Shown: one piece after another, positions 1,617 through 18,703 of the stretch
Position numbering within the stretch: position 1 is the first letter of the stretch
How the letters are laid out: each line of letters begins with the position of its first letter
IMG/VR virus record: IMGVR_UViG_3300035208_003581
Coordinates: 1-64,000 of that record
Source of the DNA: a virus
Lineage: Duplodnaviria; Caudoviricetes
Length of the DNA: 64,000 nucleotides
Direction: 5' to 3' (one strand)
Notes under the pieces: generated by a model
What the model saw: only the letters and a program-made list of their open reading frames with translations
Database searches by the model: none
Told to the model about the DNA's origin: nothing
Translations under genes and position numbers: made by a program

Positions 1617-1632
1617 AGTAGGTGGTATAATA

Positions 1633-1911: not shown

Positions 1912-1915
1912 TAAA

Positions 1916-2293: not shown

Positions 2294-2296
2294 TGA

Positions 2297-2548
2297 ATGC
2301 TAAATTTTTTTAGAAAAATTTTTAATAGATCTGATTTAAATAGTACTACATCAGATACTGATAATGCTTCATTTATTAAACAAAACAAAAGTAATTTTGA
2401 TGAATTTATATCTAAAGTACGTATAAATGAAGATCATATTGAAATACGGAATATGTTTGAAGATAGAAATAGTGATTTAGCTGCATTAAAAATACAATTG
2501 GAAGAACTTAAAAAACAAGCTATAGATATTTTAGGAGAACAAAAATGA
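2297..2548 (+). CDS. Small coiled-coil hypothetical protein
   Basis: Tightly packed ORF with amphipathic N-terminus MLNFFRKIF; its stop overlaps the next start (ATGA). Confidence 0.55.
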   Translation: MLNFFRKIFNRSDLNSTTSDTDNASFIKQNKSNFDEFISKVRINEDHIEIRNMFEDRNSDLAALKIQLEELKKQAIDILGEQK

Positions 2549-3006
2549 ATTCTGATGAAAAACTTGATGCTATTTTGAAACTTATTCAAAATTTAATTAC
2601 ACCCATGACAAAAACTTTAGATGAAATGAAAAAATCTTCTGATGAGATCAGTAAGTCTACATCAAGTCGATATATAGTACTTATATCAATGACTATTATT
2701 GCTTTTTTTGTATTTGGATCTCAAATATTTGTAATAAACAAAATGAATAATGTTATCTCTAGAATAGATGAAGTTTCAATTCAATCAAATATAAATTCTG
2801 TTCAATTTGAAGACCTTGCAAAAGTTACTCGTGATTATACTTCTTCCCCTGAAGTAGAGAAGAAAATAAATGATATGTTAATGGCTAATAAATACCCATC
2901 AAAATATCAGATTTCAAGAATGATGAAATCGTTTAGAAAACCAAAATCACAATTGGTACAACGAATATTAAATGCTGAGTTATTGGATTCAATAACAGAT
3001 AAATAA
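2545..3006 (+). CDS. Single-pass membrane protein with coiled coils
   Basis: Central TM (YIVLISMTIIAFFVFGSQIFVI); RBS AGGAG. Confidence 0.6.
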   Translation: MNSDEKLDAILKLIQNLITPMTKTLDEMKKSSDEISKSTSSRYIVLISMTIIAFFVFGSQIFVINKMNNVISRIDEVSIQSNINSVQFEDLAKVTRDYTSSPEVEKKINDMLMANKYPSKYQISRMMKSFRKPKSQLVQRILNAELLDSITDK

Positions 3007-3020
3007 TATTTCAGCATTAA

Positions 3021-3046
3021 TCTTTTTATGTTTAAGTGAATTAGGT
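3021..3046 (+). promoter_or_regulatory. Putative late-promoter motif TCTTTTTATG-N10-TTAGG
   Basis: Similar motifs recur in intergenic gaps at about 5919, 9792, 12342 and 23832, and on the minus strand at about 18598-18623. Confidence 0.4.
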
Positions 3047-3082
3047 AATACTTATTGTTTTTATAAAAAAAAGGAGAATGAA

Positions 3083-4243
3083 ATGTTACGTGTTATCCAT
3101 AGTCAATCACAAGATGGTTTAATAATTTTAAGTGATATTGAGGATGGTGTTAGATTCAGTTCTCGAATTATATTAGATAATGCAGCTCGTTTAGCTGCAA
3201 AACAACCAGTATATGTTCCATATTATAACCCAGATGATCCTACTCAACCTGGATTTGTAGATTTAGATGAAACTGATAAAGTTTTATTGTCAGCAGACCA
3301 TGGTTGTATAGCTGGATTAGTTGATGCAGGATTAGCTACAGTTGAGATTTTCGCTGCTGCAGATATTTTAATTCCAACAATAGTTTCGGTAGAATTAAAT
3401 GATGATGTCTTTGTTGGTGGGTTAGTTGTTATAGGTACAAAATTATTATCCACTTTACCATTTGTATCATCATTAATAATTACTGGTGACGGTGCTGTTA
3501 CCTACACAAGAGCAGAAGTTATTGCTGGTGGTGGTACATGGACTGATACACAAATTGCATTACCTGCTACATTAATTACAGGTGTTGTAGAAACTACATC
3601 TGAAATTACTGTTACTGCTGATGGTCTTACAGTTACACCTGTTGTTGAAGTTGCATTAGGTGCTACAACAGTTCCTGTAGTTACTACAGCAGTATTAAGT
3701 GATGGAGATGACCCAAATATACTTACAGTAACTGGTACTGGATTCTTATCAATATTACCAGATACTTCGTCAATAATAATTACTGGTAGTGGGGCTGTAA
3801 CAATATCAAAAGCAGATGTTTTAACTGGTAGTGGTACATGGACAGATACTGAGGTGGTTTTACCAGCAGCATTAATAACTGATGTAGCAGTAGGAACATC
3901 ATCAGTAGCTATTGAAGCTGATTCTGAAACATCAACACCAGCTACCGTTATTACATTAGGAACTCCAGCTACTCCAGAAATTACTACAGCAGTATTAGAT
4001 ACAGATTTAACTATTACAGGTTCAGGTTTCTTATCTATACTTCCAGAGTTATCTTCAGCAGCAATTACTGGTGATGGTGCTGTTACATTAACTCAATCAC
4101 AAGTTGAAACTGGTTTAGGTACTTGGACAGATACTTCAATTGTCATTCCAGCAGCATTGATTGCTGGTGTGTCAGCTACAACATCATCTGTAGCTGTTAC
4201 AGCAGATGCTGATACAAGTTCCGTAACTGTTATAACGGCATAG
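3083..4243 (+). CDS. Virion decoration-type protein with three Ig/IPT-like repeats
   Basis: Three ~95-aa repeats (L.V.G..[FL]LS.LP..SS..ITG.GAVT.......G.GTWTDT....PA.LI); T/V/A/G-rich; strong RBS AAGGAG. Confidence 0.65.
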   Translation: MLRVIHSQSQDGLIILSDIEDGVRFSSRIILDNAARLAAKQPVYVPYYNPDDPTQPGFVDLDETDKVLLSADHGCIAGLVDAGLATVEIFAAADILIPTIVSVELNDDVFVGGLVVIGTKLLSTLPFVSSLIITGDGAVTYTRAEVIAGGGTWTDTQIALPATLITGVVETTSEITVTADGLTVTPVVEVALGATTVPVVTTAVLSDGDDPNILTVTGTGFLSILPDTSSIIITGSGAVTISKADVLTGSGTWTDTEVVLPAALITDVAVGTSSVAIEADSETSTPATVITLGTPATPEITTAVLDTDLTITGSGFLSILPELSSAAITGDGAVTLTQSQVETGLGTWTDTSIVIPAALIAGVSATTSSVAVTADADTSSVTVITA

Positions 4244-4247
4244 TTAA

Positions 4248-4589
4248 ATGAATGATATTCAAATAAGTGAATACTTAGATGGGAGATTAGTTGAATTCCG
4301 TGGGGCACAATGGAGGCCCCACGGAATTTATCCCCAAAATTATTTAAAGAGATTGCAGGGAGACATGGAATTAATGTTTCGTGAACTATCTTCTTTAAAT
4401 TTTAAAGGTTTAATTTATGAACCAAAGTTAAATAAGCAGTTACATTTAATGAAAATTGCTTTGGATAAAGCAAAACGTGCTCGGTATTTTGATCATATTG
4501 AATTTACTGAGTTTATGAATAATTTTTATGTTGAAAGTAGAAATTTTTTAGAAACACTATGGAGATTAAGAATTAAGAAAGAAATTTAA
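4248..4589 (+). CDS. Hypothetical protein
   Basis: 113-aa ORF filling the gap; no recognisable motif. Confidence 0.55.
   Translation: MNDIQISEYLDGRLVEFRGAQWRPHGIYPQNYLKRLQGDMELMFRELSSLNFKGLIYEPKLNKQLHLMKIALDKAKRARYFDHIEFTEFMNNFYVESRNFLETLWRLRIKKEI
4294..4328 (+). terminator. GC-rich 13-bp hairpin (terminator or mRNA stabiliser)
   Basis: AATTCCGTGGGGC-9 nt loop-GCCCCACGGAATT, a perfect inverted repeat 50 nt after the stop of the Ig-repeat gene. Confidence 0.55.
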
Positions 4590-4668
4590 ACAATATTTTA
4601 GATTAATAACATATTAATATTGTTTATTAATAGTAGGGTATAAAACGTAAAACATACTGGAGATTAAA

Positions 4669-5193
4669 ATGGCTAGAATAGGTGTCATACGAACAGATGT
4701 TGGTGCTGTATTTTTAACTGACATTGAAACAGTATCTCAATGGGCAGCCTCTCTTGAACCTAGAGGTCAAGAAAGACGTGTTTACAGACCAAACCCTGAA
4801 GTTGCTACAAATACATTTTACAGTATTGTAGATATTCTTTTAGCAGATGCATTAAATTTAACTGCTGCTGAAGCAGCAGCGGCAGCTCCACTCTTAATTT
4901 TAAGAGCATTGCCAACTACTGGTACTATCAATGTTAGTCAAGCTAACATTGAATTTGATTACAGTGGTATTGATGCTGCTGCTGGTGATTTAAGTGGTGG
5001 TATTGAAGCAACTACTTATCAAAATTTAGTAGATGAACTTGCTCCTAACTTTGTAGAAACAGGAGTATTTTTAACTTCTTTTAATAGTGGTGTTATTTCT
5101 AAATATGCTGATGCTACATTTTCTGTGGAAGGTGTGGCAGGAGCCGCAATTGAAGTTGTTAGTTCAGATGATGGTGTTACACCATTTGCATAA
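4669..5193 (+). CDS. Putative virion structural protein
   Basis: Ala-rich acidic 174-aa ORF with RBS GGAG. Its N-terminus (AVFLTDIE) weakly echoes that of 3083 (LIILSDIE). Confidence 0.5.
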   Translation: MARIGVIRTDVGAVFLTDIETVSQWAASLEPRGQERRVYRPNPEVATNTFYSIVDILLADALNLTAAEAAAAAPLLILRALPTTGTINVSQANIEFDYSGIDAAAGDLSGGIEATTYQNLVDELAPNFVETGVFLTSFNSGVISKYADATFSVEGVAGAAIEVVSSDDGVTPFA

Positions 5194-5268
5194 TATGAAG
5201 ACACCCTATGTTAGAGATAACATAGCTAATGTTAATATTTATTAACAGAAACGTATCGGTGGGTTGTT

Positions 5269-5514
5269 ATGACATCTGTAAAAGAACTTTATGCAATAAG
5301 TGATATTTATTTTGCTGCATATTTGCGTATTTTTAAATGTGACTTAATTAGAAGTAAGAAAGATGGAAATCGCACTTTGTTTTTATTTGCAGATACTCCT
5401 CAATTACAGGATTTAAAAATAAAGTACTATAATAAATCAGATGAATCTAAAGTAACACCTTTAGATTTTGCTAATTCTGTTAAGGATTTGAAATCCCTTT
5501 GTTATATGAGTTAA
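5269..5514 (+). CDS. DUF5659-like small protein
   Basis: SDIYFAAYL...KDGNRTLFLF...YYN pattern resembles this small phage family (from memory). Confidence 0.55.
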   Translation: MTSVKELYAISDIYFAAYLRIFKCDLIRSKKDGNRTLFLFADTPQLQDLKIKYYNKSDESKVTPLDFANSVKDLKSLCYMS

Positions 5515-5533
5515 CATTAAATAGGTATATTTT

Positions 5534-5914
5534 ATGACCTATGCAATACGTGGTAGTAATAGAACCTTTCAAGTTCTTTTTGTCAGAGGATCAACTGGGA
5601 TAGCAGTTTCAGTTACTAATCCTACCATAACAATTTTTCACTATGATGATATTGATGGTATTACAGGTAATAATAAAATAATAGATGTATATAATGCTAC
5701 TTTAATACCTGATTCTGATATTGGTCAATACCATTATGTATGGTATGTTCCATCATCAAAATTAATTAATCAAATGCATTATACTATTTTTAAAGGTTTT
5801 GATCCATCTACCAATTTAAATATTGTGTTAGAGGAATCATTTTCTATTGTTGATGGGAATACATCTTCTAATGGTTTAATTAGAAATATGACATCTTCTT
5901 TTATCAAGTACTAG
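5534..5914 (+). CDS. Ig-like beta-sandwich virion protein
   Basis: IGQYHYVWYVP resembles IGEYYAAISIP in the N-terminal domain of the next gene. Confidence 0.5.
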   Translation: MTYAIRGSNRTFQVLFVRGSTGIAVSVTNPTITIFHYDDIDGITGNNKIIDVYNATLIPDSDIGQYHYVWYVPSSKLINQMHYTIFKGFDPSTNLNIVLEESFSIVDGNTSSNGLIRNMTSSFIKY

Positions 5915-5963
5915 AATTTCTTTTTATATTTTTACTAATTGGATATATTTTCAGGAGAAAATT

Positions 5964-6857
5964 ATGTCAGTTGCATTTATACGTGGTCAACAATTAGGTA
6001 GAGAAGACTTAAATATATTTTTACGTAACTCTTCTGGTATGCCAGCAAATGCAGCAGTTATCACTTATGCTATTTATGATAATACAACAGGTATAGAAGT
6101 TTTAATTGGTAGTGATGCACGTCAGCCAGTTAATCCCGCTATTGGAGAATATTATGCTGCAATTTCAATACCATCAGATGCAAATATAGGTGATTTTAGG
6201 ATACGGTGGACGTTTAAAGAAACATATACATCACAATTAGTTCAATGTGTTCAAGAATTTAATATAATTGAAAGTGGTTTAAATTCACAGTATCAAGATT
6301 ATGGCACATTGATGAATGGACTCATTGATAAGATGAGAGTTTATTTACGTGATAATAATCCAGATCGTAACTATAATTTTAGACCACCTACTGGTGAAGG
6401 TATAGTGAATCAGTATAATAGAGTATTTGGTTATATATGGGAAAATAATGAACTTTATGAATATTTAGATGGTGGTGCTGGTTTAGCAATGATGTATCCT
6501 CCTAGAACATATTTTCCAACAGTTGAAACTCTATTACAGAGTTACCCAGAATGGAAAATGCTTGTTGTAACAGGTGGTATGGTGTTAGCACTTCAAGCAT
6601 TGATGATAAATTGGATAGCAGAAGAGTTCGATTATTCAATTGCAGGAATTTCTTTATCTATTGATAAATCTTCAAAATATGAAGCTGCAAAACAAAATGC
6701 AGAAGAGCAATTTGATAAATATGTTGAAGCTGCAAAGAAAACAGTTAAAGTAACTAAAGGTTTACGTCAACCTAGATACAGCACTGGATTTAGGAGTGCT
6801 CTTGGTCCAAATACAGGACGTAATATTATGACTCCAAGAAAGTTTGCAGGTATTTAG
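5964..6857 (+). CDS. Putative head-tail adaptor/neck protein
   Basis: Ig-like N-domain plus a helical domain (LIDKMRVYLRD; FDYSIAGISLSIDKS..Y) typical of adaptor proteins; gene position fits. Confidence 0.55.
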   Translation: MSVAFIRGQQLGREDLNIFLRNSSGMPANAAVITYAIYDNTTGIEVLIGSDARQPVNPAIGEYYAAISIPSDANIGDFRIRWTFKETYTSQLVQCVQEFNIIESGLNSQYQDYGTLMNGLIDKMRVYLRDNNPDRNYNFRPPTGEGIVNQYNRVFGYIWENNELYEYLDGGAGLAMMYPPRTYFPTVETLLQSYPEWKMLVVTGGMVLALQALMINWIAEEFDYSIAGISLSIDKSSKYEAAKQNAEEQFDKYVEAAKKTVKVTKGLRQPRYSTGFRSALGPNTGRNIMTPRKFAGI

Positions 6858-8129
6858 ATGTCTGTGTGTCCAAAATCTCCTAATAATGTCAGTATATTAT
6901 CTCCATTTTTACCTAATGCTCTTGATATTAGATGGGATGACCCCTCAATTTTAACAGAAAATTCAGATTTTGAAATTTTAGGGGTAAATATTTATCGTTC
7001 TTTTGATAGTGAATATGGTCCGTTTAAAAAACTTAATGATGTCCCTATGGCATCTAATTTTTTCAGAGATCAAACAAAGATAGATGTAATTATAGATGAA
7101 GATGTGAGTAATAGATTTTTATCTCGTGGGAATAATGCGAATGGTAGTTGGGTATTTCAAACTGTACAATTTCCAATAATGAAACAAGCATTTAATACTG
7201 AGGTTAGAGAAGCAGACCACCCGAATGATGTTCAATTAAAGATTAATGGATCTGTTATACCTGTATTTAAAGTGGATGGTCATAGTGGTCAAGTGTCTTT
7301 GATTACTTCTTCTATTTTTAATCCTATTTCTGAAAAAAATGAATTGGCAATATTACCAACAGATTCATCAATAGTTACTTGTACTTATAGATATTTAAGT
7401 AATCCTATATACACTGCATTAAATCAGAGAATTTTTTACAGGATCACTACTGTGGGTATTGACTCTAATAATATAGTTGTCGAGACTCCTATTCAAGAAA
7501 TACAATCTTTTTCTCACCATGAAATTGAAAGATTAGACTGGATTTGGCGTGAAGCAATTCGTCGTAATAGATGGATATTAGAACAAGGTGGTGAGCGTGT
7601 AAAAGTTTTTTTAAGAAAATATGTTGGAATACAATGTTCATGTTGGGATACTGAGAAAAAGCATCCTATAAATGATTGTATGCTGTGTTTTGGTACTGGT
7701 ATTTTAGGTGGGTATGATGGGCCATTTGATATGATACTTGCTCCAGATGAATCAAGTAAACGTAAAAATCGTACTGAATACGGATATCATGTTGAACATT
7801 CTTGGGAAACTTGGACAGGTCCAAGTCCATTATTATCTCATCGTGATTTTATAGTTAGACAAAATGGTGATAGATATAGTTTAGGTGCTGTGACAGTACC
7901 TTCATCTCGTGGTATGATATTACAACAGCATTTTTCAATGAATATGTTTGATTCATTAGATATTCGTTATAAAGTACCTATTATAGGAACTTCTGAATTA
8001 TCATATCCACAAACAAGATTTCAAAATGAAGGATCAAATGTTTATCCTCAAATTACTGAAAAATCATTGATTCCAGATGAGAGAGAATTGCGTGGTAGAA
8101 CAGTAGTGTGGGAAAACATAACATATTAA
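6858..8129 (+). CDS. Putative head-closure/neck protein with FN3-like and Zn-binding domains
   Basis: FN3-like start (PNNV..LDIRWDDP..GVNIYRS), CSC...CMLCFGTG Zn motif, beta-barrel C-terminus (DFIVRQNGDRY). Confidence 0.55.
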   Translation: MSVCPKSPNNVSILSPFLPNALDIRWDDPSILTENSDFEILGVNIYRSFDSEYGPFKKLNDVPMASNFFRDQTKIDVIIDEDVSNRFLSRGNNANGSWVFQTVQFPIMKQAFNTEVREADHPNDVQLKINGSVIPVFKVDGHSGQVSLITSSIFNPISEKNELAILPTDSSIVTCTYRYLSNPIYTALNQRIFYRITTVGIDSNNIVVETPIQEIQSFSHHEIERLDWIWREAIRRNRWILEQGGERVKVFLRKYVGIQCSCWDTEKKHPINDCMLCFGTGILGGYDGPFDMILAPDESSKRKNRTEYGYHVEHSWETWTGPSPLLSHRDFIVRQNGDRYSLGAVTVPSSRGMILQQHFSMNMFDSLDIRYKVPIIGTSELSYPQTRFQNEGSNVYPQITEKSLIPDERELRGRTVVWENITY

Positions 8130-8130
8130 T

Positions 8131-8658
8131 ATGCAAATAATATTTGAACCAAAACTTTTTTTACCTATAGTTAAGTTAGGTAATTTAAACCATAGATTTT
8201 TAAATGGTTTAGCTAAAAAAATAGTTTCAATAATAAAACAAGAAATAAAACAAGAAAGTTTTGATGGTGTTTCAAAAGATTTAATTAATTCTTGGAGTTA
8301 TAGAGTTTCAGGTGATTCTATTCATATATTTTCAAACCATGATGCATTTAAAGATGATAAAGACAAAGAAGTTGAAGAAGAAGAAGTTGAAAAAGTTGAA
8401 GAAGATAATAATGTAGATGAAACTGTAGAGCCTGTTGTTGAAAAAGTTTATAAAATGAAGTCACGTCGTGTATCTATTACAAATAAAGGAGAAGTCACCA
8501 CTCAAAAAACGACAGCTAGAACTTTGTCTAATGGAGAATGGTTATTCCCATCAAGTCAAACTCCAGCATTTATGGTAAGAGCAAATAAACGTATCCTGAA
8601 AATGTTATTTGAAAGTATTCAAAAATATGTTATACAAATTACTAAGAAAAGAATGTAG
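8131..8658 (+). CDS. Putative neck/tail-completion protein
   Basis: LINSWSYRV..SIHIFSNH..FMVRA pattern resembles HK97-gp10-like completion proteins; carries an acidic insert. Confidence 0.4.
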   Translation: MQIIFEPKLFLPIVKLGNLNHRFLNGLAKKIVSIIKQEIKQESFDGVSKDLINSWSYRVSGDSIHIFSNHDAFKDDKDKEVEEEEVEKVEEDNNVDETVEPVVEKVYKMKSRRVSITNKGEVTTQKTTARTLSNGEWLFPSSQTPAFMVRANKRILKMLFESIQKYVIQITKKRM

Positions 8659-8665
8659 GTAGGCT

Positions 8666-9421
8666 ATGCAAATTGATTTAGATAAAGACCTAATTGTAAT
8701 AGGTAATGTTGTTGGATCACATACAGTAAGAGATATCAGTGTGACAATTAAGTATGGAGAATCAGTAAGATTGAACTCTAAGCAAGTATCAAAATCAATT
8801 GATCTCATTCATGATATAGAATCAAAAAAATTACGTATTGATTCACGTTTATATAAATCAAATTTGTCTATGAAAAAACAACATAATATCAAGGATGATA
8901 AAGTTTCAAAAGTTGTTGATATTGGTTTTAATGATTTAAAGAATTCAGTACAGAATAACACACAAGCATTATCTGATATGTCTAAAATTATTCAAGATTT
9001 AGTATTAGAAATGAAAAGTATGCATTCAGAATCATTAAGAGAAATACCTAGCCCTAATATTTGGAATGGTTTACTTTCTAAGGTATCTGAAATAATTTCT
9101 GAATTGGGAGATATAAAAGTATCAATATCTAATATGGATAATATTGCTATAGGGAATGATATATCTTTAGACGATTCAAGATTTGAAGATTTAAAATCAT
9201 TATTGAAAAAAGAAATAAGTTCCATTAAATTTTCCAGTATCTCAACTAATGAACTGAGTAATGGGTATACAGGTTTTGTACCAGATGTATATATACCTTC
9301 AAAATTAACTGGTTCTGTTGAGGTAGTTGATACTAAAATAACAACTGAATCTGTAAAATCAGATGGGTCGAAGATGAGAGATAACTTACGTGCTTTAAAG
9401 GCATTGAAGGACGATAAATAA
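8666..9421 (+). CDS. Coiled-coil hypothetical protein
   Basis: 251-aa ORF with helical heptads and a C-terminal LRALKALK helix. Confidence 0.6.
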   Translation: MQIDLDKDLIVIGNVVGSHTVRDISVTIKYGESVRLNSKQVSKSIDLIHDIESKKLRIDSRLYKSNLSMKKQHNIKDDKVSKVVDIGFNDLKNSVQNNTQALSDMSKIIQDLVLEMKSMHSESLREIPSPNIWNGLLSKVSEIISELGDIKVSISNMDNIAIGNDISLDDSRFEDLKSLLKKEISSIKFSSISTNELSNGYTGFVPDVYIPSKLTGSVEVVDTKITTESVKSDGSKMRDNLRALKALKDDK

Positions 9422-9484
9422 TAATGTGGGTAATAGATAGTAACTATCTTAAAACTGATTTTTTCTATGGTGTAATAAATATTA

Positions 9485-9781
9485 ATGATTAATGAGCCTT
9501 TATCATTTGTATTTTATTTTGAAAAGAATCTTTATTTTGCACATTGTGTTGATGGTGATGATGGGTCTGTTAATAGGTATCTTGTTAAACAGATAACGAA
9601 AAAAAATTATGACAAATTGTATAAAAATACTTCTGAACTTATAAATATTTATGATATATATAATATATTTACTGATTCTGAAATTTTTGTTGTGGACATA
9701 CACATAGGTTGTATGTCAATAGTTAATCAATGGGTGATCGAATATAAATATTTACCTGAAAAAATAAGACATGATGATTGA
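9485..9781 (+). CDS. Hypothetical protein (DUF6575-like)
   Basis: EPLSF..NLYFAHCVD..RYLV..YLP pattern; flanked by its own intergenic gaps. Confidence 0.4.
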   Translation: MINEPLSFVFYFEKNLYFAHCVDGDDGSVNRYLVKQITKKNYDKLYKNTSELINIYDIYNIFTDSEIFVVDIHIGCMSIVNQWVIEYKYLPEKIRHDD

Positions 9782-9865
9782 TAATGAATTTTTCTTTTAT
9801 AATATTTATACGTAGATTACAAAATATGTAGTTATATGTAACTGATTAATAAAAAGGAGTTTAAA

Positions 9866-10855
9866 ATGTTTGGAGTAGGACTTGACATTGGAACAATGAA
9901 TATCATTAGTTCTCGAAAAAATGAAGCAGATGATTTAGTGGTAAAACGTATTCGAGATGCATTTTTGGATTTAGACCTAGATGCTAAAAAAATGTTGAAA
10001 CTTACAAAAGTAAGTTATATTGAATATAGTGATAAAATAATAATTGTTGGTGACAATGCTTTAAATACTGCTAATATTTTAAAGAAGGATGCACGTAGAC
10101 CTTTAAGTAAAGGTATAATATCCCCATCTGAAATTGATGCAGTTGAAGTTCTTTCAGTCATGATCAAACAAGTTTTAGGTAAACCACAGAAAAAAGATGA
10201 AGTATGTTACTATTCAGTACCTGCAGCTCCTGTAGATGATCCTACTCGTGATGTTATTTACCATGCTAAAGTTTTTAGTCGTATTGTAGAAGATTTAGGT
10301 TATAAAGCTATAGAATCAAATGAAGCTCTTGCTATTATATTTTCAAATTGTGCTGAAGATGGATTTTCAGGTTTGGCATTTTCATATGGTTCTGGTATGG
10401 TAAATATAGCATTATCGTATCATACTTTAATGAGTATGTCATGTTCAATATCTAAAGGCGGTGATTGGATTGATACTCAAGCTGGGAAAGCTCTTAATTT
10501 AACAGCATCCAAAATGTGTTCAATTAAAGAAAAAGGTATTAATTTATTAGATCCAAAAGATCGCACTGAGGAAGCAATCAGTATTTATTATAAATCATTG
10601 ATTGAAGAATCTATTCATAATATGGTTGAGCAGGTAAATAATCTTGGAGATTCTGAATTCCCTGAAGCAATTCCTATTATTCTATCAGGAGGTACATCAC
10701 AAGCTCAAGGATTTTTGGAGCTATATAAATCTATTTTTAAAAATTATAAGGATAAGTTAAAGTTAGATATAAGTGAAATTCGAATGGCAAATAACCCATT
10801 AACAAGTGTTTCTGAAGGTTTGTTGTTACAAGCACTTCAGGACAGTGAAGATTGA
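9866..10855 (+). CDS. Actin-fold ATPase, volactin-like
   Basis: Phosphate-1 GLDIGTMN, connect-1 NEALA, phosphate-2 SYGSGMVN, GGDWID, adenosine LSGGTS, connect-2 PLTSVSEG; RBS AAGGAG. Confidence 0.88.
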   Translation: MFGVGLDIGTMNIISSRKNEADDLVVKRIRDAFLDLDLDAKKMLKLTKVSYIEYSDKIIIVGDNALNTANILKKDARRPLSKGIISPSEIDAVEVLSVMIKQVLGKPQKKDEVCYYSVPAAPVDDPTRDVIYHAKVFSRIVEDLGYKAIESNEALAIIFSNCAEDGFSGLAFSYGSGMVNIALSYHTLMSMSCSISKGGDWIDTQAGKALNLTASKMCSIKEKGINLLDPKDRTEEAISIYYKSLIEESIHNMVEQVNNLGDSEFPEAIPIILSGGTSQAQGFLELYKSIFKNYKDKLKLDISEIRMANNPLTSVSEGLLLQALQDSED

Positions 10856-10865
10856 GGAGAATTTT

Positions 10866-11162
10866 ATGAAGAGTTACAAAGGTATCCCATTGAAAGACGG
10901 AATGGTTGTTAAAACTGAGAGTAAAAATGTTACATCTTTAAAAGATGTTGAAGAAAAAAGAAAGTCAACATTGGAATCTGAACCTATTCAAGATAAAGAG
11001 ATTGAAGAAGATAAAGAAGAGTTAGATTCTTCAAAATTAAACCATATGCTTAAATCTGAACTTGAAAAAAAAGCAAAAAGTATGGGTATTTCTGTGACTG
11101 ATAACATGACAAAAAAATATTTAATTAAAGAAATTATTAAAAGTTATAATCATAAAGCATAA
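10866..11162 (+). CDS. Small protein with C-terminal Rho-N/HeH-like helical motif
   Basis: Start moved to ATG 10866 (RBS GAGGAG); motif LNHMLKSELEKKAKSMGI...MTKKYLIKEI. Confidence 0.6.
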   Translation: MKSYKGIPLKDGMVVKTESKNVTSLKDVEEKRKSTLESEPIQDKEIEEDKEELDSSKLNHMLKSELEKKAKSMGISVTDNMTKKYLIKEIIKSYNHKA

Positions 11163-11165
11163 CCT

Positions 11166-12311
11166 ATGTCTTATTATTGGTTAGTAAATTCTACAAAAAA
11201 AAGATTGATTAAAGAATTGAAAGGTGTGTTTACTGACCATCCTTATTATTCTAAAATTGTACCATTTATTCAAGATAAATTTTCTTTCTCAGAACGCCCA
11301 CAATATGGTATAATATTAAAATCATCTTCTGGAAATAAAGTAAATCTTAGCCCTCAGAATTTTATTGGTACTATTAAGAGTTATTGTACTAAGGCTTATA
11401 TTGATGGTTATCAAGGAATGTTCTTAGAATGGTTAAGGGAAGATACATTATCATTAAAAAATAATAATGGTATTTTCCCAACAAACCCAGGTTTCTATAA
11501 AATAGAAGTGATTAGTGTAAATGAACAGAAAACATCTGGTTCTATAATTGTTGATTCTACTCATTCTATATTTGATGAGCATATACTTACTGCTATTACT
11601 GGGCTTGAAAATACAGCTTTATTAGAAAAAGAACCTATTCTAGGTACTGTGCGTTTATATTTAGGCAATAGTTTGTATGGATTAACTGAAGGTGTTGATT
11701 TTGAAATTTCTGGTAAAAATATTACATTCTTAACACCTTTATATCCATATACTGATGTATATGCTGATTATAAAGTTTTTATTGGGTCTAGTGGTCCTTA
11801 TCAATTCAATTCTTTTACATCGAATAATGAGATATTGCCTGGAGTGGTACTTGCATTTGGGAATCGTATTTTACAAGGTGATCGTTGTGTCATTATGGTC
11901 ACAGATACTCGTATTAATGCTTATGACGAGTATGGTGGTCGCTATGATATGACATTTGAACTTGATACTATTGCAAGAGATCCTATTCAAGCAGAGCAAA
12001 TATCAGATTTTGCTTCAGTATCAATACTACAATTGATGGATACATTAGCTAATGAAGGTATTGTACTCACTGATGGTCCTAATTTAGGTGGTGAATCAGA
12101 AGAAGTTTATGATGAAGAAGGTGATGAACAGTATTATTCTTATAGTTTTTCTTTATCATTACAAACTGATTGGGCATATTACAAACCGTTACCTATAATG
12201 ATTCATAAGATATTATCTGAGGATGTTCTTATGGAGATGAAAATTACAGATGAGGATTATAGTGATAGAATACAGTCTATCACTAATTTAGATATTGAAA
12301 AATTTTATTAA
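11166..12311 (+). CDS. Putative tail terminator/completion protein with inserted domain
   Basis: Lies shortly upstream of the sheath; fold pattern LIKELK..F / FELDTIARD..QAEQISD / YSYSFSLSLQTDW. Confidence 0.5.
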   Translation: MSYYWLVNSTKKRLIKELKGVFTDHPYYSKIVPFIQDKFSFSERPQYGIILKSSSGNKVNLSPQNFIGTIKSYCTKAYIDGYQGMFLEWLREDTLSLKNNNGIFPTNPGFYKIEVISVNEQKTSGSIIVDSTHSIFDEHILTAITGLENTALLEKEPILGTVRLYLGNSLYGLTEGVDFEISGKNITFLTPLYPYTDVYADYKVFIGSSGPYQFNSFTSNNEILPGVVLAFGNRILQGDRCVIMVTDTRINAYDEYGGRYDMTFELDTIARDPIQAEQISDFASVSILQLMDTLANEGIVLTDGPNLGGESEEVYDEEGDEQYYSYSFSLSLQTDWAYYKPLPIMIHKILSEDVLMEMKITDEDYSDRIQSITNLDIEKFY

Positions 12312-12397
12312 TTTTATATTTCATGTAATTAAATATTTTTATCTTTTTATGTTTTGAGTATATTGAGTGAATTAATATGTAACAGGAGGAATAAGAT

Positions 12398-12814
12398 ATG
12401 CCAGTTTATAAATATCTATGTAAATCATGTGGGTTAGAATTTGATAAATTAGTTTCTGTATCAGATGCTAAAAAAGAATCTGATTGCATAAGTTGTAGTG
12501 GTAAAGCAAATAAAATGATTACATCAGCTAATTTTAATTTTAAATCAAAACAGGAACAAGGTTCTACTGGTATTCATGATATTGATTATCCTAATGTAGA
12601 TAAAGCTGTTGGTCGTTCAGCAGAAACAAAATGGATCGATTTCAGAGATCGGCGTGAAGTTGCAGATCAAGCACGAGACGCTTATAATGCTAAATATCTT
12701 GGTAAGATAGCTGTTGATTCTCATACTGATGAGTATTATAAAGTATCAGATTCTAAAGTTAAGTATCGTAGAGAAGTGGCAAATGAACTAAGTGATGCAT
12801 TATCACATAGTTAA
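12398..12814 (+). CDS. FmdB-family zinc-ribbon protein
   Basis: MPVYKYLCKSCGLEFD...CISC...KMITSANFNFK signature; RBS AGGAGG. Confidence 0.8.
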   Translation: MPVYKYLCKSCGLEFDKLVSVSDAKKESDCISCSGKANKMITSANFNFKSKQEQGSTGIHDIDYPNVDKAVGRSAETKWIDFRDRREVADQARDAYNAKYLGKIAVDSHTDEYYKVSDSKVKYRREVANELSDALSHS

Positions 12815-12858
12815 GTCAATTTAAATAGAAGTAAAAGTAAATTAGGAGGAATTTTATC

Positions 12859-15800
12859 ATGGCGTTAGGAACTGGGCCTTTTGAATCACACGTGTTTCCT
12901 GGTGTATATACTCAGACTGTTCGAGAACGAGGAGGCGGTCCCCCTGCAGGAATCAGACCTATAGTATTTATAGGTGTCGGTCAAGAATACTTAGAGAATA
13001 AAGACTTTGAACTTGTTCGTGGCTCATCGTCAACTGTTGATCAACAGATTGTCAAAGAAGATGAATCTGTACGTATTGTGTTAGATGAGACAAATCCATC
13101 TAATCCTATTCTTGGGTTAGCTGATGGATCTCATTCAAAATTCAGAGTTAGAAATTGGCCTATTGTTTTGGGTGATGGTCGAGGAACCACTTCTACTAAT
13201 CCTCAATCCGTGACAGTTACTGTGGATGGTATTCAGGTGGTTGTAGCTCAAGTCAATGGTTCTGAGGGTTATGTAACCCTTCAATCAATTCCTTCTGAAG
13301 GTGCAGATATTAAGTGTACTTATTATTTTAATCGTACAGATACACAGATTACCGATGATGTTAGTGATCAAGTTACACCAGATTATGCCACATTATATTC
13401 TAATGCAGAGACTTGGGATATCATTAGTGGTATTAATGATACTTTAGATCTTACAATTGCTGATGGTTCAGAGCAGACAGTTACATTAACTGCTGGATCT
13501 GGTATTACAGCCTTACAAGTTGTAGCAGATATTGAATTAGCACAAATTTCTGGTCTTACTTCATCTGTTTATGTTGACTCTGAAGGAAATAATAAAGTTA
13601 AATTATTAGCATCTACTGAGATAACTATTGGAAATGGTAATGCTAATTCACTTTTTGGATTTTCAGCAGGTCAAACTTCTGGGAGAAATAAAATTTTCAA
13701 AGTTTTCCAAAGACCTATTGTTGATGGATCAAATGGTGGTATTACTACTAATGAAGTAGCAAATATCATTGTTAAAGTAAATTACTTGGAAGTTACAGCA
13801 TATACATTAGATGGGGTAAATGGTGTAGTTACTCTTAAAACACCTCCAGCAGTTGGTTCAACTGTTACTGTTGAATATTATTTCAACACATATCAGGATA
13901 CATTTGATTATTTACCTCATACTGATATTACTAATGTCGGTGCCTGTGGTGTTGCTCCTGGTAGCAGAGATTATACAAATCTTTCAGACTTTGTTGTTCA
14001 AGACGGTAAGATTCATTGGGGAACTTCTGTAGCTATTTCTGCTGGTGAACGTTCAGCAGGAGCGGAGCCTTTTGATTCAACTCAAATATCTTCGTTATTG
14101 ATTGATAATAGAATGTATCTTGATCAATGTACACGTTTTGTTGATACTTCTGTATCTCCATCAATAGTTTCTGATAATCAATTCATACTCCCACTTATAC
14201 CAACAAGTGGTAATGGTCGTGATACGTTACTTGGTTCTTCATTATACTCATCAGTTACTTCTGGTCGCATAGATTTACCAACTAACCGTCCAGATCTTGT
14301 TATTGCTTATAGAGGTCGTGATGTTCGTGATGCGATGAATAAAGGACCTATTACAGTGTTGGAAGTAGATTCTGCCACACGTAAGATTAAAGTGGCAGAA
14401 ACAGTACCGCCAGGTGAATATGTTTATGCTACTTATTGGCATAATGTTATTCGTGATGATACATATACTTTAAGCTGCACTACAAAAGGATCATCTGGTG
14501 TGGGTAAATATAGCATCCATTCACAGTTAAATGATGCAAATATGTATGCAGTACTCTTTGGAACGAAGAATGTTGGTTTATCAGAAACCATTCAATGGCC
14601 TTCTGGTGTGGAATTAAAACCATACGCTCATTTTTTTGGTGGTTCTCCTATACCCGAAGAGGTTACTATTACATTCAGTGATTCTGATGGATTACCAGCT
14701 ATTTTCACAAATTCTGAGCCAGGACCATATAATTTGTTTGATGGTACAAGTGATCAATTTTTTTACAACATTGATAATGATGGTGCTGCTGTTGTAGACC
14801 TTGGTGATGCTGCACCAGCATCATTGGTTGGTGATATTTGTGGAGATACCATTAATACTGTTGGAGCTACTGCATTAAACATTACTGTAAATGGTACTGC
14901 TATTGCTGTAACACTTCCTTCTGGAGCTTCAACACCATTAGAGGGTGCTTTGTCTGTTATATTAGCAATTAATACGGCATCGCAATCAGCAATTACTGCT
15001 GATATTGCCGAAAAAGTTGGTACTGGTGCACGAGCACGATTGAGATTATATAGTTCTGTATCACCTACAACTCCTGATACTGTTAGTTCTGTAAGTGTAC
15101 AATCTGGTACAGCCAATGCTGTATTAGGTCTAACTACAAATACAATTTCTACTGGTATACAAAAAGCAGTTGCATTACCAGCAACTATGTTAAATACCAT
15201 TGAAGAGCCTATAGTAATTACTTCTGGTTTAAATGATACTTTTAAGGTTACTTTTGAAGGTATTCCTTATGAAGTTACACTGACAGCAGGATCTCGTACT
15301 GCAGCTCAAATAGCTTCTGATATTAATACTGCTACAGGTGCTACAAATGCTGTGTCAACTACTATAGATGGTAGTAATTATTTAAGATTAAATTCAATAG
15401 TAACTTCACTTGATTCTAAGATTACCATTGGTAATGGTAATGCCAATTCAATATTAGGATTTACTACTGGATCAGTAGCAAGTTTACGTTTACCTAATGC
15501 TTTAAGTATTGTTACAGCTTTGAATGCTTCAGCAGCATTTAAAGTATTAGCATTAGCACGAACAGTGACACAAGCTGGTGTTGGAACTGTTTTGCAGATT
15601 GAGTCTCTTACTGCAGGTTCTACGTCATCAATTGCTTTTGGCACAGGGTCATTGAGTGCATTTAATAATACTGGTCTTGGTATTATTCCTGGTACATCTG
15701 GAGATGTTGGAGAGGCTGTTGGTAGCTATTATGTTGTTTCATCAAGTAATGTTACTTCTGGTTCAGGTACTGGAACAAATAATATAGGTTATCCTGGTCA

Positions 15801-17085
15801 GACATATACGGATGAAATTACAGGATTACAGTTTACAATTCTTGAATCTACATCAGGAAGCTATACTGATGGAGAAGGTTTTACTCTTAATGTAGTAGAA
15901 GAAATCCCTACAGATTCAAATACACCTGTACTTGCAATTCCAGGTATTGAATTAACAGTATCAAATACTACTAATGTGACTGTTGGTGATACTGGAATAG
16001 TCCAGACATTCAGTAAATCAGGTTCAGAACCAGCTATCGGTGATTTTTATTATCTTTCATACGCATATACAAAAGAAAGTTTTAGTACTGAATTATTTAC
16101 TTCCGATGAATTAAATATTATTAAAGCTATGTATGGTGATGTATCTGTTGATAATCAATTGTCTTTGATGGCTCAGATTGCATTTGATAATGGGTTACCG
16201 TATTTAGGTCTCAAACAAGTTCTCAAATCTGGTACAGGCAGTCAAGCAACAGCTCAGGCATTCATTGAAGCAATAAATGAATTGTCACAACCTTTATCAA
16301 ACCAAACAAGGCCTTACATTTTAGTACCATTAACTACTGATACAAGTGTTATTTCTTACTTAAAACAACATTGTACAATTCAGGCTAGTCCACGTTATGG
16401 TAATAAACGTTTAGGATTTTTTGGATTCTCATCTGGTACACGTCCTTCAGATGCACAATTGATTGCTAAGTCAATTGCATCTGACCGTATGCGTTGTGTT
16501 TATCCTGATACTGCTATTGTAGCAATTACTGACAGTGTGGGTGTTGAAACTGAATATGTTGTGGATGGTACCTTCCTTGCAGGTGCATTAGCAGCAAAAA
16601 TTATGAATCCATCTCGTGACTTTGCAACACCATATACCAATACTGTTATTAATGGGTTTAAACGTTTAGGTCGTCGTTTGGATGCTCCTACACAAAGTCA
16701 AACAGCTATTGCAGGTATTAATGTTTTAGAAGATACTGCGACAGCAATTAAAGTTAAACAAGGGTTTACTACGGATATGAGTGATTTACTTACTCAGATT
16801 CCTACTATGACTCAAATTGATGACCTTGTGCATGAGCTTCATACAAATCGTCTAGTGAAGTATTCTGGTATTAAGTATCTCAGTGGTATGACAACAGATA
16901 TCCAAGCTGATTCAAACCAAGTTATGAAGAGTTTGAAACAAACTAACATTATCACTGGTTATTTACCAGCAGTTGCTACACCTAGCGTAGATGATCCAAC
17001 TTTAATACGTGTAGAAACATATTATGCTCCTATATTCCCATCTCTGTATATTCTCGTAACACAAAATGTTAGAGTTCGTATATAG
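12859..17085 (+). CDS. Contractile tail sheath protein (1408 aa, multiple inserted domains)
   Basis: N-terminal FPGVYTQ..IVFIGVG; C-terminal sheath core (RMRCVYP, GTFLAGALAA, AGINVLE, DPTLIRVETYYAPIFP..YILVT). Confidence 0.9.
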   Translation: MALGTGPFESHVFPGVYTQTVRERGGGPPAGIRPIVFIGVGQEYLENKDFELVRGSSSTVDQQIVKEDESVRIVLDETNPSNPILGLADGSHSKFRVRNWPIVLGDGRGTTSTNPQSVTVTVDGIQVVVAQVNGSEGYVTLQSIPSEGADIKCTYYFNRTDTQITDDVSDQVTPDYATLYSNAETWDIISGINDTLDLTIADGSEQTVTLTAGSGITALQVVADIELAQISGLTSSVYVDSEGNNKVKLLASTEITIGNGNANSLFGFSAGQTSGRNKIFKVFQRPIVDGSNGGITTNEVANIIVKVNYLEVTAYTLDGVNGVVTLKTPPAVGSTVTVEYYFNTYQDTFDYLPHTDITNVGACGVAPGSRDYTNLSDFVVQDGKIHWGTSVAISAGERSAGAEPFDSTQISSLLIDNRMYLDQCTRFVDTSVSPSIVSDNQFILPLIPTSGNGRDTLLGSSLYSSVTSGRIDLPTNRPDLVIAYRGRDVRDAMNKGPITVLEVDSATRKIKVAETVPPGEYVYATYWHNVIRDDTYTLSCTTKGSSGVGKYSIHSQLNDANMYAVLFGTKNVGLSETIQWPSGVELKPYAHFFGGSPIPEEVTITFSDSDGLPAIFTNSEPGPYNLFDGTSDQFFYNIDNDGAAVVDLGDAAPASLVGDICGDTINTVGATALNITVNGTAIAVTLPSGASTPLEGALSVILAINTASQSAITADIAEKVGTGARARLRLYSSVSPTTPDTVSSVSVQSGTANAVLGLTTNTISTGIQKAVALPATMLNTIEEPIVITSGLNDTFKVTFEGIPYEVTLTAGSRTAAQIASDINTATGATNAVSTTIDGSNYLRLNSIVTSLDSKITIGNGNANSILGFTTGSVASLRLPNALSIVTALNASAAFKVLALARTVTQAGVGTVLQIESLTAGSTSSIAFGTGSLSAFNNTGLGIIPGTSGDVGEAVGSYYVVSSSNVTSGSGTGTNNIGYPGQTYTDEITGLQFTILESTSGSYTDGEGFTLNVVEEIPTDSNTPVLAIPGIELTVSNTTNVTVGDTGIVQTFSKSGSEPAIGDFYYLSYAYTKESFSTELFTSDELNIIKAMYGDVSVDNQLSLMAQIAFDNGLPYLGLKQVLKSGTGSQATAQAFIEAINELSQPLSNQTRPYILVPLTTDTSVISYLKQHCTIQASPRYGNKRLGFFGFSSGTRPSDAQLIAKSIASDRMRCVYPDTAIVAITDSVGVETEYVVDGTFLAGALAAKIMNPSRDFATPYTNTVINGFKRLGRRLDAPTQSQTAIAGINVLEDTATAIKVKQGFTTDMSDLLTQIPTMTQIDDLVHELHTNRLVKYSGIKYLSGMTTDIQADSNQVMKSLKQTNIITGYLPAVATPSVDDPTLIRVETYYAPIFPSLYILVTQNVRVRI

Positions 17086-17095
17086 AATCCCATTA

Positions 17096-17126
17096 AAATG
17101 AGGGTCTTGTAATAAGACCCTCATTT
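17096..17126 (+). terminator. 13-bp hairpin after the sheath gene
   Basis: AAATGAGGGTCTT-GTAAT-AAGACCCTCATTT, a perfect inverted repeat 10 nt after the stop. Confidence 0.8.
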
Positions 17127-17200
17127 CCCACCTTTAAAATTATTTTAATTTGTTAATTTAATATACTTATTGGTATGATTTATATTAAAGGAGATCACAA

Positions 17201-17557
17201 ATGGCTTCAAATGCAAAAATTTCAATGACATTACAATACCCGCCAGAAGATAATGCTAGTGATGTTCAAATACCTAAAATTGTTAATATTACTGGTTTCA
17301 CTGAGAAGGTAGATAGTACATTTGTTTTGTCAATTGGTGATGGGTTAGAGTTGAATCTTGGTTCTGTAGAATCTGCAAAAGCAATATATATATCAACTAC
17401 TGAAGAAATTACTGTGCATCTTAATTCATCAATTACTGGGTTCATGTTAGCTGCAGATGGTGTGTTTTTATTGGTAGGTGGTCCAAGTGCTATAGAATCT
17501 ATAACAGTTGATGTCACTGTTGAAGGTACATCAATACGTTTGTGGGCAATTGAGTAG
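17201..17557 (+). CDS. Small beta-rich putative virion protein
   Basis: 118 aa with RBS AAGGAG; composition resembles a beta-sandwich. Confidence 0.55.
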   Translation: MASNAKISMTLQYPPEDNASDVQIPKIVNITGFTEKVDSTFVLSIGDGLELNLGSVESAKAIYISTTEEITVHLNSSITGFMLAADGVFLLVGGPSAIESITVDVTVEGTSIRLWAIE

Positions 17558-17558
17558 A

Positions 17559-17801: not shown

Positions 17802-17814
17802 GAGTCACCCTATC

Positions 17815-18573: not shown

Positions 18574-18670
18574 TTTAATCTCCATAAAAGTTTTATACCC
18601 TATTAACTGTTGGTATAAAAGTATTATTTTATATTTTCAAAAAATTTTAAAATATTTATTTAGACTTTGT

Positions 18671-18686
18671 ATTATAGATCTATAAT
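18671..18686. promoter_or_regulatory. Perfect 16-bp palindrome with TATAAT on both strands
   Basis: ATTATAGATCTATAAT in the divergent intergenic region. Confidence 0.5.
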
Positions 18687-18703
18687 TCTTTATGGAGGTA
18701 TAC

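What the first reader, a model, noticed from the sequence alone, without database searches (positions are those of the whole stretch)
8666..11162. Volactin-like actin embedded in the neck module with candidate adaptor proteins
Seen: a complete actin ATPase motif set, with Ser in place of the usual phosphate-2 Asp (SYGSGMVN). It is flanked by a coiled-coil protein (8666) and a small Rho-N/HeH-like protein (10866), between head-completion genes and the putative tail terminator. From memory, the sequence (GLDIGTMNI, VGDNAL..ANI....RRP..G, PA.P.D, YH, GGDWID, AISIYY, GGTS...GF, PL.SV..G) resembles haloarchaeal volactin more than MreB, ParM or FtsA. Established: PhiKZ-like jumbo phages use tubulin PhuZ for capsid trafficking and nucleus positioning. 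Inference: this is an actin-based late-stage counterpart (virion or DNA trafficking, or host shape remodelling), with the neighbours as filament-cargo adaptors.
Basis: partly seen in the sequence, partly recalled or inferred. Interest (0 to 1): 0.78.

Follow-up and report, generated by a model that had tools for sequence, protein, structure and literature searches.

The report
Huge-phage volactin actin with adaptor
A fragment of a roughly 450-kb uncultured phage encodes its own actin of the "volactin" family and a coiled-coil partner whose conserved tail probably docks on it, so these huge phages probably build actin filaments while assembling virions, which no paper I could find describes.

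Summary
ORF 9866-10855 is a full-length Pfam Volactin (PF25216) protein (E 4e-69), with no other family at E<0.1. AlphaFold gives pLDDT 96, and the nearest solved folds are the filament formers MamK, BeeR and MreB. Ser in place of the phosphate-2 Asp is real, but it is a family-wide signature (SxGxGMxN).

The gene is a core gene of a huge-phage clade. At least 480 IMG/VR contigs encode a relative, and 68 of 69 loci chosen by the downstream terminator-like gene carry the actin directly upstream.

The 8666 protein is a plausible adaptor:
- It is present upstream of the actin in 72/73 and 63/64 loci.
- It has a conserved C-terminal strand-plus-helix tail, modelled at pLDDT 92-94 in a read-through co-fold.
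- The one relative without the actin (L153) has also lost the tail.
- The same tail ends the gene upstream of chromosomal volactin genes in 10/10 Planctomycetota loci examined.

The 10866 Rho_N-like gene and ORF 9485-9781 are lineage-specific insertions and are not adaptors. The family is not mainly haloarchaeal: 80 of 201 sampled Planctomycetota genomes carry it. The function (late-stage virion or DNA positioning) remains inference.

This scan has found the same system before on other DNA. I found no publication on it.

The parts
9866..10855 (+). Volactin-family actin (329 aa)
   Evidence: Pfam PF25216 E 4.4e-69, full length. AF2 pLDDT 96, pTM 0.93. Foldseek best matches MamK TM 0.74, BeeR 0.72, MreB 0.6-0.7. 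Strong Shine-Dalgarno sequence.
9878..9904 (+). Phosphate-1 motif GLDIGTMNI (D7, G9, T10)
   Evidence: D7, G9 and T10 are conserved in the huge-phage actins (151/152), in 13/13 planctomycetal copies and in 5/5 MreB.
10319..10327 (+). Connect-1 NEA with catalytic-type Glu153
   Evidence: E153 is present in 152/152 huge-phage actins, 89/91 representatives and 12/13 planctomycetal copies.
10379..10405 (+). Phosphate-2 motif FSYGSGMVN, with Ser173 and Asn180 in place of the two acidic residues of MreB
   Evidence: S173 in 152/152 phage actins, 89/91 representatives and 12/13 planctomycetal copies; Asp in 5/5 MreB. N180 likewise, against D/E in MreB.
10685..10699 (+). Adenosine motif SGGTS
   Evidence: G275 is invariant and G276 nearly so across all groups.
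8666..9421 (+). Candidate adaptor (251 aa): N-terminal domain, coiled-coil middle, conserved C-terminal tail
   Evidence: Partner HMM hit upstream of the actin in 72/73 and 63/64 loci. No Pfam family.
8666..8845 (+). Adaptor N-terminal domain (about 60 aa, strands plus helices)
   Evidence: pLDDT 86-97 in the co-fold. Conserved across 50 orthologues. Retained in L153, which lacks the actin.
9272..9418 (+). Adaptor C-terminal tail (about residues 203-251: F/Y-I-P, a short strand, then the helix MRDNLRALKALK)
   Evidence: pLDDT 74/81/94/92, strand 228-232 and helix 235-252. Tail regex matches in 58/75 loci against 5/919 background ORFs. The same motif ends the upstream gene in 10/10 Planctomycetota loci. 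Lost together with the actin in L153.
9485..9781 (+). ORF98, a lineage-specific insertion between adaptor and actin; not part of the conserved system
   Evidence: No homologue in 81 related loci and absent from L003. pLDDT about 60 in the co-fold.
10866..11162 (+). Small Rho_N-like protein (98 aa), an accessory insertion
   Evidence: Rho_N below threshold; PHROG 3281 E 8e-7. A homologue is seen in only one related phage (contig behind L003/L056; L005 and L006 carry identical copies). In relatives the actin abuts the next gene.
11166..12311 (+). Terminator-like 381-aa protein, the conserved downstream neighbour
   Evidence: Found in 74/81 loci. Atlas: SP10_terminator cluster score 0.91, Phage_tail_terminator_9 by structure. 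Not confirmed by Pfam or PDB.
8131..8658 (+). 175-aa protein, conserved upstream neighbour of the adaptor (context)
   Evidence: Seen just before the adaptor in most loci. Function unknown.
6858..8129 (+). 423-aa virion-type protein (context)
   Evidence: Found in 67/81 loci. Weak PHROG 1004 'virion structural protein' hit. The atlas finds only viral clusters.

Best explanation
The window encodes a two-part phage cytoskeletal system. The first part is an ATP-binding actin of the volactin family that most likely polymerises into filaments. The second part is a coiled-coil adaptor whose conserved C-terminal strand-plus-helix tail docks on the actin, while its phage-specific N-terminal domain holds a cargo. 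Both genes sit in, and are probably co-transcribed with, the head-completion/tail-terminator/sheath block. I therefore infer that the filaments act late in infection, to position or bring together very large virion parts (or packaged genomes) that diffuse poorly in the cell.

Shown: family membership, fold, an intact nucleotide site, core-gene status in the clade, and the conserved pairing with a tail-bearing partner in both phages and Planctomycetota.

Inferred: polymerisation, tail-actin contact, the cargo and the timing.
For: - Family and fold: PF25216 full length and no sibling family. pLDDT 96. Nearest solved folds are the filament formers MamK, BeeR and MreB, not Hsp70 or kinases. MreB is separated by a long, fully supported branch.
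- Nucleotide site: conserved in 152/152 phage copies.
- Conservation: the actin is one of the better-conserved proteins of the block (67% and 59% identity, against 33-61% and 25-46% for the block's other proteins apart from the 297-aa one).
- Core gene: at least 480 viral contigs. 68/69 loci chosen by the terminator-like gene have it directly upstream, median gap 31.5 nt. No intrinsic terminator is predicted between 8131 and 13000.
- Adaptor: present in 72/73 and 63/64 loci. Tail motif in 58/75 loci against 0.5% of background ORFs. The tail is modelled at pLDDT 92-94 after about 150 floppy residues. L153 lost the actin and the tail together but kept the N-terminal domain, while its nearest relative L170 has both. 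The same tail ends the coiled-coil gene directly upstream of chromosomal volactin genes in 10/10 Planctomycetota loci.
- No tubulin in four 92-100% complete relatives.
- Precedent: VolA forms dynamic filaments in vivo (PMC10869688).
Against: - No experiment exists on any phage member.
- The folding tool gives neither coordinates nor PAE, so I could not see what the tail touches. It might pack on the adaptor's own N-terminal domain.
- The actin-loss/tail-loss coincidence is a single event.
- Ser and Asn replace both acidic residues of phosphate-2, so hydrolysis, and hence filament dynamics, may differ from MreB or ParM.
- The structural identity of the neighbours rests on weak hits.
- Late timing is inferred from gene position only.
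- Some family members are fused to ParB-type HTH domains, which points to DNA as cargo in at least part of the family.
Confidence: 0.55

Rival explanations
1. A ParMRC/AlpAC-type DNA-positioning system. The adaptor binds phage DNA, through its N-terminal domain or the basic run after the tail helix. The actin filament then moves or segregates phage genomes, for replication, packaging or plasmid-like carriage, and does not move virion parts.
For: The known prophage actin AlpC works this way with the adaptor AlpA (PMC4446434, PMC5539076). Natural ParB-HTH-volactin fusions exist (P0152, P0183). Adaptor tails end in basic runs. In L153 the tail is replaced by a histone-H1-like KKxPAKK repeat.
Against: No iteron or centromere-like array lies near the genes or within the first 20 kb of the window. 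The cassette is fixed inside the virion-gene block, directly before the terminator-like gene, in nearly all relatives. No DNA-binding family is recognised in the adaptor.
Confidence: 0.2
2. A non-polymerising actin-fold ATPase that acts as an assembly factor or chaperone for neck/tail joining, with the 8666 protein as its substrate or co-factor.
For: The position between neck-type and terminator-type genes. Both acidic phosphate-2 residues are replaced. Viral Hsp70-type proteins share the fold at a distance.
Against: The best structural matches are all filament formers, and no Hsp70 appears near the top of the PDB list. There is no substrate-binding domain. The family's founding member polymerises in vivo. 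The same actin-plus-partner cassette sits in bacterial chromosomes with no virion genes nearby.
Confidence: 0.12
3. Host-cell remodelling. The phage actin reshapes or enlarges the infected cell, or competes with a host actin system, echoing volactin's role in Haloferax cell shape.
For: VolA affects the rod-to-disk transition. Huge virions may need more room.
Against: Relatives range from 30% to 65% G+C and so infect varied hosts. The adaptor's N-terminal domain is phage-specific and survives without the actin. Placement in the virion operon is unexplained by this reading.
Confidence: 0.08

Closest known systems
Volactin (VolA, HVO_2015) of Haloferax volcanii; Pfam PF25216 (Schiller et al. 2024, PMC10869688)
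   Same: Same Pfam family, matched over the full length at 233.8 bits. The model hits only H. volcanii among 14 control genomes at E<=1e-10. VolA forms dynamic cytoplasm-spanning filaments.
   Different: The host is an archaeon and the role is cell shape; here the gene is a phage gene within a virion operon. I could not obtain the VolA sequence, so I made no direct alignment, no tree placement and no check of its phosphate-2 residue or of its neighbour's tail.
Chromosomal volactin-type actin plus upstream coiled-coil gene of Planctomycetota (apparently undescribed; possibly related to the MamK-like 'saltatorellin', bioRxiv 10.1101/817700)
   Same: Same Pfam family, found in 80 of 201 genomes and up to 312 bits. 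Same Ser/Asn phosphate-2 signature. Same gene order, with a coiled-coil partner ending in the same strand-plus-helix tail.
   Different: It forms a separate, well-supported clade. The partners' N-terminal parts are unrelated. There are no virion genes nearby. Identity with saltatorellin was not tested.
AlpC/AlpA of Corynebacterium prophage CGP3 (PMC4446434, PMC5539076)
   Same: A phage-encoded actin-like protein working with a dedicated adaptor.
   Different: AlpA binds alpS DNA sites and serves viral DNA replication and transport. The present system has no detectable repeat sites, lies in the virion block and belongs to a different actin family. AlpC itself was not compared here.
PhuZ tubulin spindle of nucleus-forming jumbo phages
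   Same: A phage-built cytoskeleton in very large phages; capsid trafficking is the model for what the present system might do.
   Different: PhuZ has the tubulin fold, not the actin fold. Four near-complete relatives of this phage have no tubulin match.
MamK, MreB and BeeR (nearest solved structures)
   Same: Same four-subdomain actin fold, TM 0.6-0.74; all form filaments.
   Different: Only 12-19% sequence identity. Pfam MreB_Mbl does not match the window protein at E<0.1. Phosphate-2 has Asp in MreB and Ser here.

Membership tests
Volactin family (Pfam PF25216) | Full-length match to the family profile above the gathering score | tested here: met
   233.8 bits against a cut-off of 35; profile positions 3-321 of 321.
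Volactin family (Pfam PF25216) | No equal or better match to sibling actin-fold families (MreB_Mbl, FtsA, ParM/StbA, Actin, HSP70) | tested here: met
   No other Pfam family at E<0.1. MreB lies across a long branch with 100% support.
Volactin family (Pfam PF25216) | Family signature SxGxGMxN at phosphate-2, with the phosphate-1 Asp and connect-1 Glu intact | tested here: met
   S173, G175, G177, N180, D7 and E153 are shared with 152 phage, 91 representative and 13 planctomycetal sequences. Whether VolA itself has the Ser was not checked.
Volactin family (Pfam PF25216) | Actin (ASKHA) fold with four subdomains | tested here: met
   AF2 pLDDT 96; Foldseek matches to MamK, MreB, BeeR and actin.
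Volactin family (Pfam PF25216) | Dynamic filament formation in vivo | not testable with these tools
   Shown only for VolA (PMC10869688).
Volactin-type two-gene cassette (partner with docking tail, then actin) | A coiled-coil gene upstream of the actin that ends in the conserved strand-plus-helix tail | tested here: met
   Window tail MRDNLRALKALK. 72/73 and 63/64 phage loci. 10/10 Planctomycetota loci.
Volactin-type two-gene cassette (partner with docking tail, then actin) | Physical contact of the tail with the actin | tested here: inconclusive
   The tail is modelled at pLDDT 92-94 in the read-through co-fold, but no coordinates or PAE were available.
ParMRC / AlpAC-type DNA segregation or transport system | Centromere-like repeat array next to the genes | tested here: not met
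   No iteron array in 4000-13000, and no non-coding tandem array in 1-20000.
ParMRC / AlpAC-type DNA segregation or transport system | DNA-binding adaptor | tested here: inconclusive
   No DNA-binding family in the adaptor. Basic runs follow the tail helix in relatives.
PhuZ-type phage cytoskeleton | Tubulin/FtsZ fold GTPase | tested here: not met
   The protein has the actin fold. No PF00091 match in the window's record or in four near-complete relatives.

The most novel reading that the evidence does not exclude
Phages with roughly 0.35-0.6 Mb genomes depend on their own actin machine because heads and tails of that size can no longer find each other by diffusion. The filament, recruited by an adaptor that is itself tied to the neck or portal region, moves or aligns virion parts. 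The cassette (actin plus tail-bearing coiled-coil partner) derives from a widespread, so far unstudied bacterial actin system that is present in about 40% of the Planctomycetota genomes sampled.
Probability: 0.3. Interest if true: 0.85.

Novelty: new variant of a known kind. Interest (0 to 1): 0.72.

Why it matters
Phage-built cytoskeletons are known from one tubulin (PhuZ) and one prophage actin (AlpC). A second, actin-based system would show that very large phages repeatedly need active intracellular organisation. This one is a core gene of a large clade of huge phages and is wired into the virion operon. It also offers a simple two-protein system (an actin plus a roughly 45-residue docking tail) that can be tested in vitro. 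The same analysis shows that "volactin" is not an archaeal curiosity. It is a major bacterial actin family with a conserved partner in Planctomycetota, a phylum whose cell biology is unusual and poorly understood.

Tried and rejected
- I could not obtain the Haloferax VolA sequence. `genome search` needs a genome handle, and the acidic candidate P0193 proved to come from a Planctomycetia MAG. There is therefore no direct comparison with VolA, MamK, ParM or AlfA in a tree; only MreB served as outgroup.
- The diverse alignment A1 was too variable for pattern seeding.
- The word-indexed homologue search found nothing for the fast-evolving adaptor. Position plus a profile worked instead.
- Alignment A4 (unpaired adaptor rows) was mis-registered onto the actin columns and was discarded. 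The paired read-through alignment A5 replaced it.
- PHROGs, Pfam and PDB sequence searches left nearly all neighbours unnamed, so 'neck', 'terminator' and 'sheath' stay at lead level.
- The sigma-70 promoter scan was no better than shuffled sequence.
- Model coordinates are not exposed, so I did no contact or surface-conservation analysis.
- I rejected the idea that the shared reading frame of adaptor, ORF98 and actin means read-through, because eleven stop codons intervene.
- I rejected prophage origin for the Planctomycetota copies: no virion-block genes lie beside them.
Full report
**What is there**

The window is the first 64 kb of a 123-kb IMG/VR viral record that CheckV rates 27% complete, implying a phage of roughly 450 kb. 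It has about 30% G+C and almost all genes are on the + strand. ORF 9866-10855 encodes 329 residues behind a canonical AAGGAG ribosome-binding site. Pfam matches it to Volactin (PF25216) over the whole profile at E 4.4e-69 (233.8 bits, cut-off 35), and no other family reaches E 0.1. No solved structure is detectable by sequence. An AlphaFold2 model built on 60 diverse relatives has mean pLDDT 96 and pTM 0.93. Its best matches among solved structures are MamK (TM 0.74), BeeR (0.72) and MreB/Mbl (0.6-0.7), then FtsA, EutJ and eukaryotic actin, all at 12-19% identity.

**The motifs**

Aligned against 152 huge-phage copies, 91 database representatives, 13 Planctomycetota copies and 5 MreBs, the phosphate-1 Asp/Gly/Thr, the connect-1 Glu, the adenosine Gly-Gly and the connect-2 Gly are all present.
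- Ser occurs in 152/152 phage copies, 89/91 representatives and 12/13 planctomycetal copies, while all five MreBs have Asp.
- The second acidic residue of that motif is Asn throughout the family.
- SxGxGMxN is therefore a family signature.

What this does to ATP hydrolysis is unknown.

**How widespread**

The exhaustive search found 957 clusters (at 50% identity) with E<=1e-3 and 303 with E<=1e-30. The word-indexed search gave 1,327 hits. The best 120 are all PF25216 at 50% identity or more, and many come from contigs of 140-620 kb. At least 480 IMG/VR viral contigs encode a relative. Among GenBank phages, only two uncultured huge phages (485 and 595 kb) match. BFVD has no close viral relative; the best hit is Bacillus phage G Gp506 at TM 0.56.

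The family is not mainly haloarchaeal. 80 of 201 sampled Planctomycetota genomes carry it, with scores up to 312 bits and at sites deep inside complete chromosomes. Five of these genomes, checked directly, also have a canonical MreB.

In a FastTree of 115 rows:
- MreB is separated by a long, fully supported branch.
- The window groups with the other huge-phage actins, with only weak support (86).
- Planctomycetota form their own clade (support 100).
- The 595-kb GenBank phage falls elsewhere, so phage volactins are not one lineage.

**Neighbourhood**

Gene order is conserved in relatives whose actins are 67%, 59% and 47% identical: 423-aa protein, 175-aa protein, 251-aa protein, actin, 381-aa protein, Zn-ribbon protein, 1408-aa protein. 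Across 81 loci, the 423-aa gene is found in 67, the 381-aa gene in 74 and the Zn-ribbon gene in 67; many of the misses are loci cut by contig ends.

In the reverse test, I chose loci by the 381-aa gene alone. Of 69 such loci, 68 have the actin directly upstream, with a median gap of 31.5 nt. The actin is thus a core gene of the clade and probably shares a transcript with its neighbours, since no terminator is predicted between 8131 and 13000.

What the neighbours are is less sure. PHROGs gives only weak connector and virion hits. The atlas links the 381-aa protein to tail-terminator clusters. Pfam and PDB searches add nothing except a DUF2460 domain.

**The candidate adaptors**

*The 8666 product.* It has three parts: a conserved N-terminal domain of about 50-60 residues, a variable helical middle, and a conserved C-terminal tail.
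- A simple tail pattern is found in an upstream ORF in 58 of 75 loci, against 5 of 919 background ORFs.
- A profile finds the protein upstream of the actin in 72/73 actin-selected loci and 63/64 terminator-selected loci.
- Zero to four variable genes may separate it from the actin.

*ORF 9485-9781.* In the window this ORF is the variable insert between adaptor and actin, and it has no homologue in the related loci.

*The 10866 Rho_N-like protein.* It occurs in only one related phage, so it is an accessory and not an adaptor.

**Three tests of the adaptor idea**

1. *Co-fold.* Adaptor, ORF98 and actin share a reading frame. I therefore folded the read-through of 8666-10852 (stops read as Gly) with a paired alignment of 16 equivalent read-throughs plus actin-only rows, after checking the register. 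The adaptor's N-terminal domain is confident (pLDDT 86-97) and the middle is floppy (31-65). The tail rises to 94 and 92, as a strand (228-232) plus a helix (235-252). That pattern suggests docking, but the tool returns no coordinates or PAE, so I cannot say what the tail docks on.

2. *A natural experiment.* L153 is the only terminator-selected locus without the actin. It keeps the adaptor's N-terminal domain, but the tail is replaced by a KKxPAKK repeat. Its nearest relative, L170, has both the actin and a normal tail. This is a single event.

3. *The bacterial loci, which I consider the strongest evidence.* In all ten informative Planctomycetota loci, the gene directly upstream of the chromosomal volactin gene is a coiled-coil protein ending in the same motif, for example GVAANLAKLKNLQ and GVSNSLNKLKSLKG, compared with the window's MRDNLRALKALK. 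A short strand lies a few residues earlier. The phage-adaptor profile aligns to these proteins only over the last 45 residues or so, in register. Neither partner has a Pfam family, and no virion genes lie beside the bacterial copies.

A conserved tail paired with the actin gene across phages and bacteria, on otherwise unrelated proteins, is what a docking peptide would look like. ParR-ParM, FtsZ-FtsA and PilN-PilM are established examples of peptides binding actin-fold proteins (my own knowledge, not checked here).

**What it most likely does**

The best-supported reading is a filament-forming actin with a cargo adaptor, used late in infection. Polymerisation is inferred from the fold neighbours, the strong conservation and VolA's behaviour. 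Late timing and a virion-related cargo are inferred from the fixed position in the virion block and from the adaptor N-terminal domain surviving without the actin. Four 92-100% complete relatives have no tubulin, so the system does not work alongside a PhuZ spindle.

The main rival is an AlpAC/ParMRC-like DNA-moving system. In its favour, ParB-HTH-volactin fusions exist in the family and adaptor tails end in basic runs. Against it, no centromere-like repeats are present and the genes are not placed with replication functions. A non-polymerising chaperone role and host-shape remodelling are less likely.

**Novelty**

In the paper library I found no description of actins in huge phages:
- The volactin papers do not mention phages.
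- The jumbo-phage reviews and the huge-phage survey mention only tubulin or nothing relevant.
- None of the listed hits of a search that included PF25216 contained that accession.

A phage actin with an adaptor is known in principle from AlpC/AlpA. I therefore class this as a new variant of a known kind. This scan has already reported the same system on other DNA. Those notes agree with what I found, and I tested their central claims independently here.

Noticed in passing
P0122, P0124 and L007:6372-8456: Volactin genes of about 700 aa are split by inteins (LAGLIDADG or HNH type) inserted at or shortly after the phosphate-2 motif. Several representatives in the exhaustive search show the same two-stretch pattern.
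   Followed up: partly
P0152, P0183, P0177 (database proteins): Natural fusions exist. A ParB-type HTH domain precedes the volactin domain in P0152 and P0183. In P0177, from a Planctomycetota MAG, the volactin domain is followed by Wzz, GNVR and a ParA/MinD-like P-loop domain. These suggest DNA-linked and envelope-linked roles in parts of the family.
   Followed up: partly
L171-L183 (Planctomycetota genomes G001-G201): 80 of 201 sampled Planctomycetota genomes carry a PF25216 actin, sometimes two in tandem. In the ten loci examined it is always preceded by a coiled-coil gene with the same C-terminal tail. This looks like an unstudied bacterial actin-plus-adaptor cassette.
   Followed up: partly
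L153:5443-6000: This is the only relative without the actin. Its adaptor homologue keeps the N-terminal domain but ends in a histone-H1-like KKxPAKK repeat in place of the docking tail.
   Followed up: yes
L017:6274-6912, L021:6292-6948, L023:6303-6950, L170:3856-4674 and others: A subclade has an extra conserved protein of about 215-270 aa (…WHEPTQFDPLRHGPPYLP… …ADKHEEFVYLL…) between adaptor and actin. It is absent from the window and could be a third component.
   Followed up: no
window 18847-19081: A tandem array of 26 copies of a 9-nt unit (36-nt super-unit) lies inside ORF 18692-20023, which has an HNH-endonuclease match. It encodes a Gln/Glu-rich repeat.
   Followed up: no
window 12859-17085 and orthologues of 11166-12311: The 1408-aa putative sheath, and 17 of 36 orthologues of the terminator-like protein, share a DUF2460-type domain. 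This fits the idea of a domain reused among virion proteins.
   Followed up: no
BFVD entry G3MAP7: Bacillus phage G (about 500 kb) Gp506 is an actin-fold protein and the nearest BFVD match (TM 0.56, 12% identity). It is a different family, but a second case of an actin fold in a huge phage.
   Followed up: no
G203 (record behind L029, 528,957 bp): IMG/VR classes this 100%-complete relative as a provirus, which would be unusual for a phage of this size.
   Followed up: no
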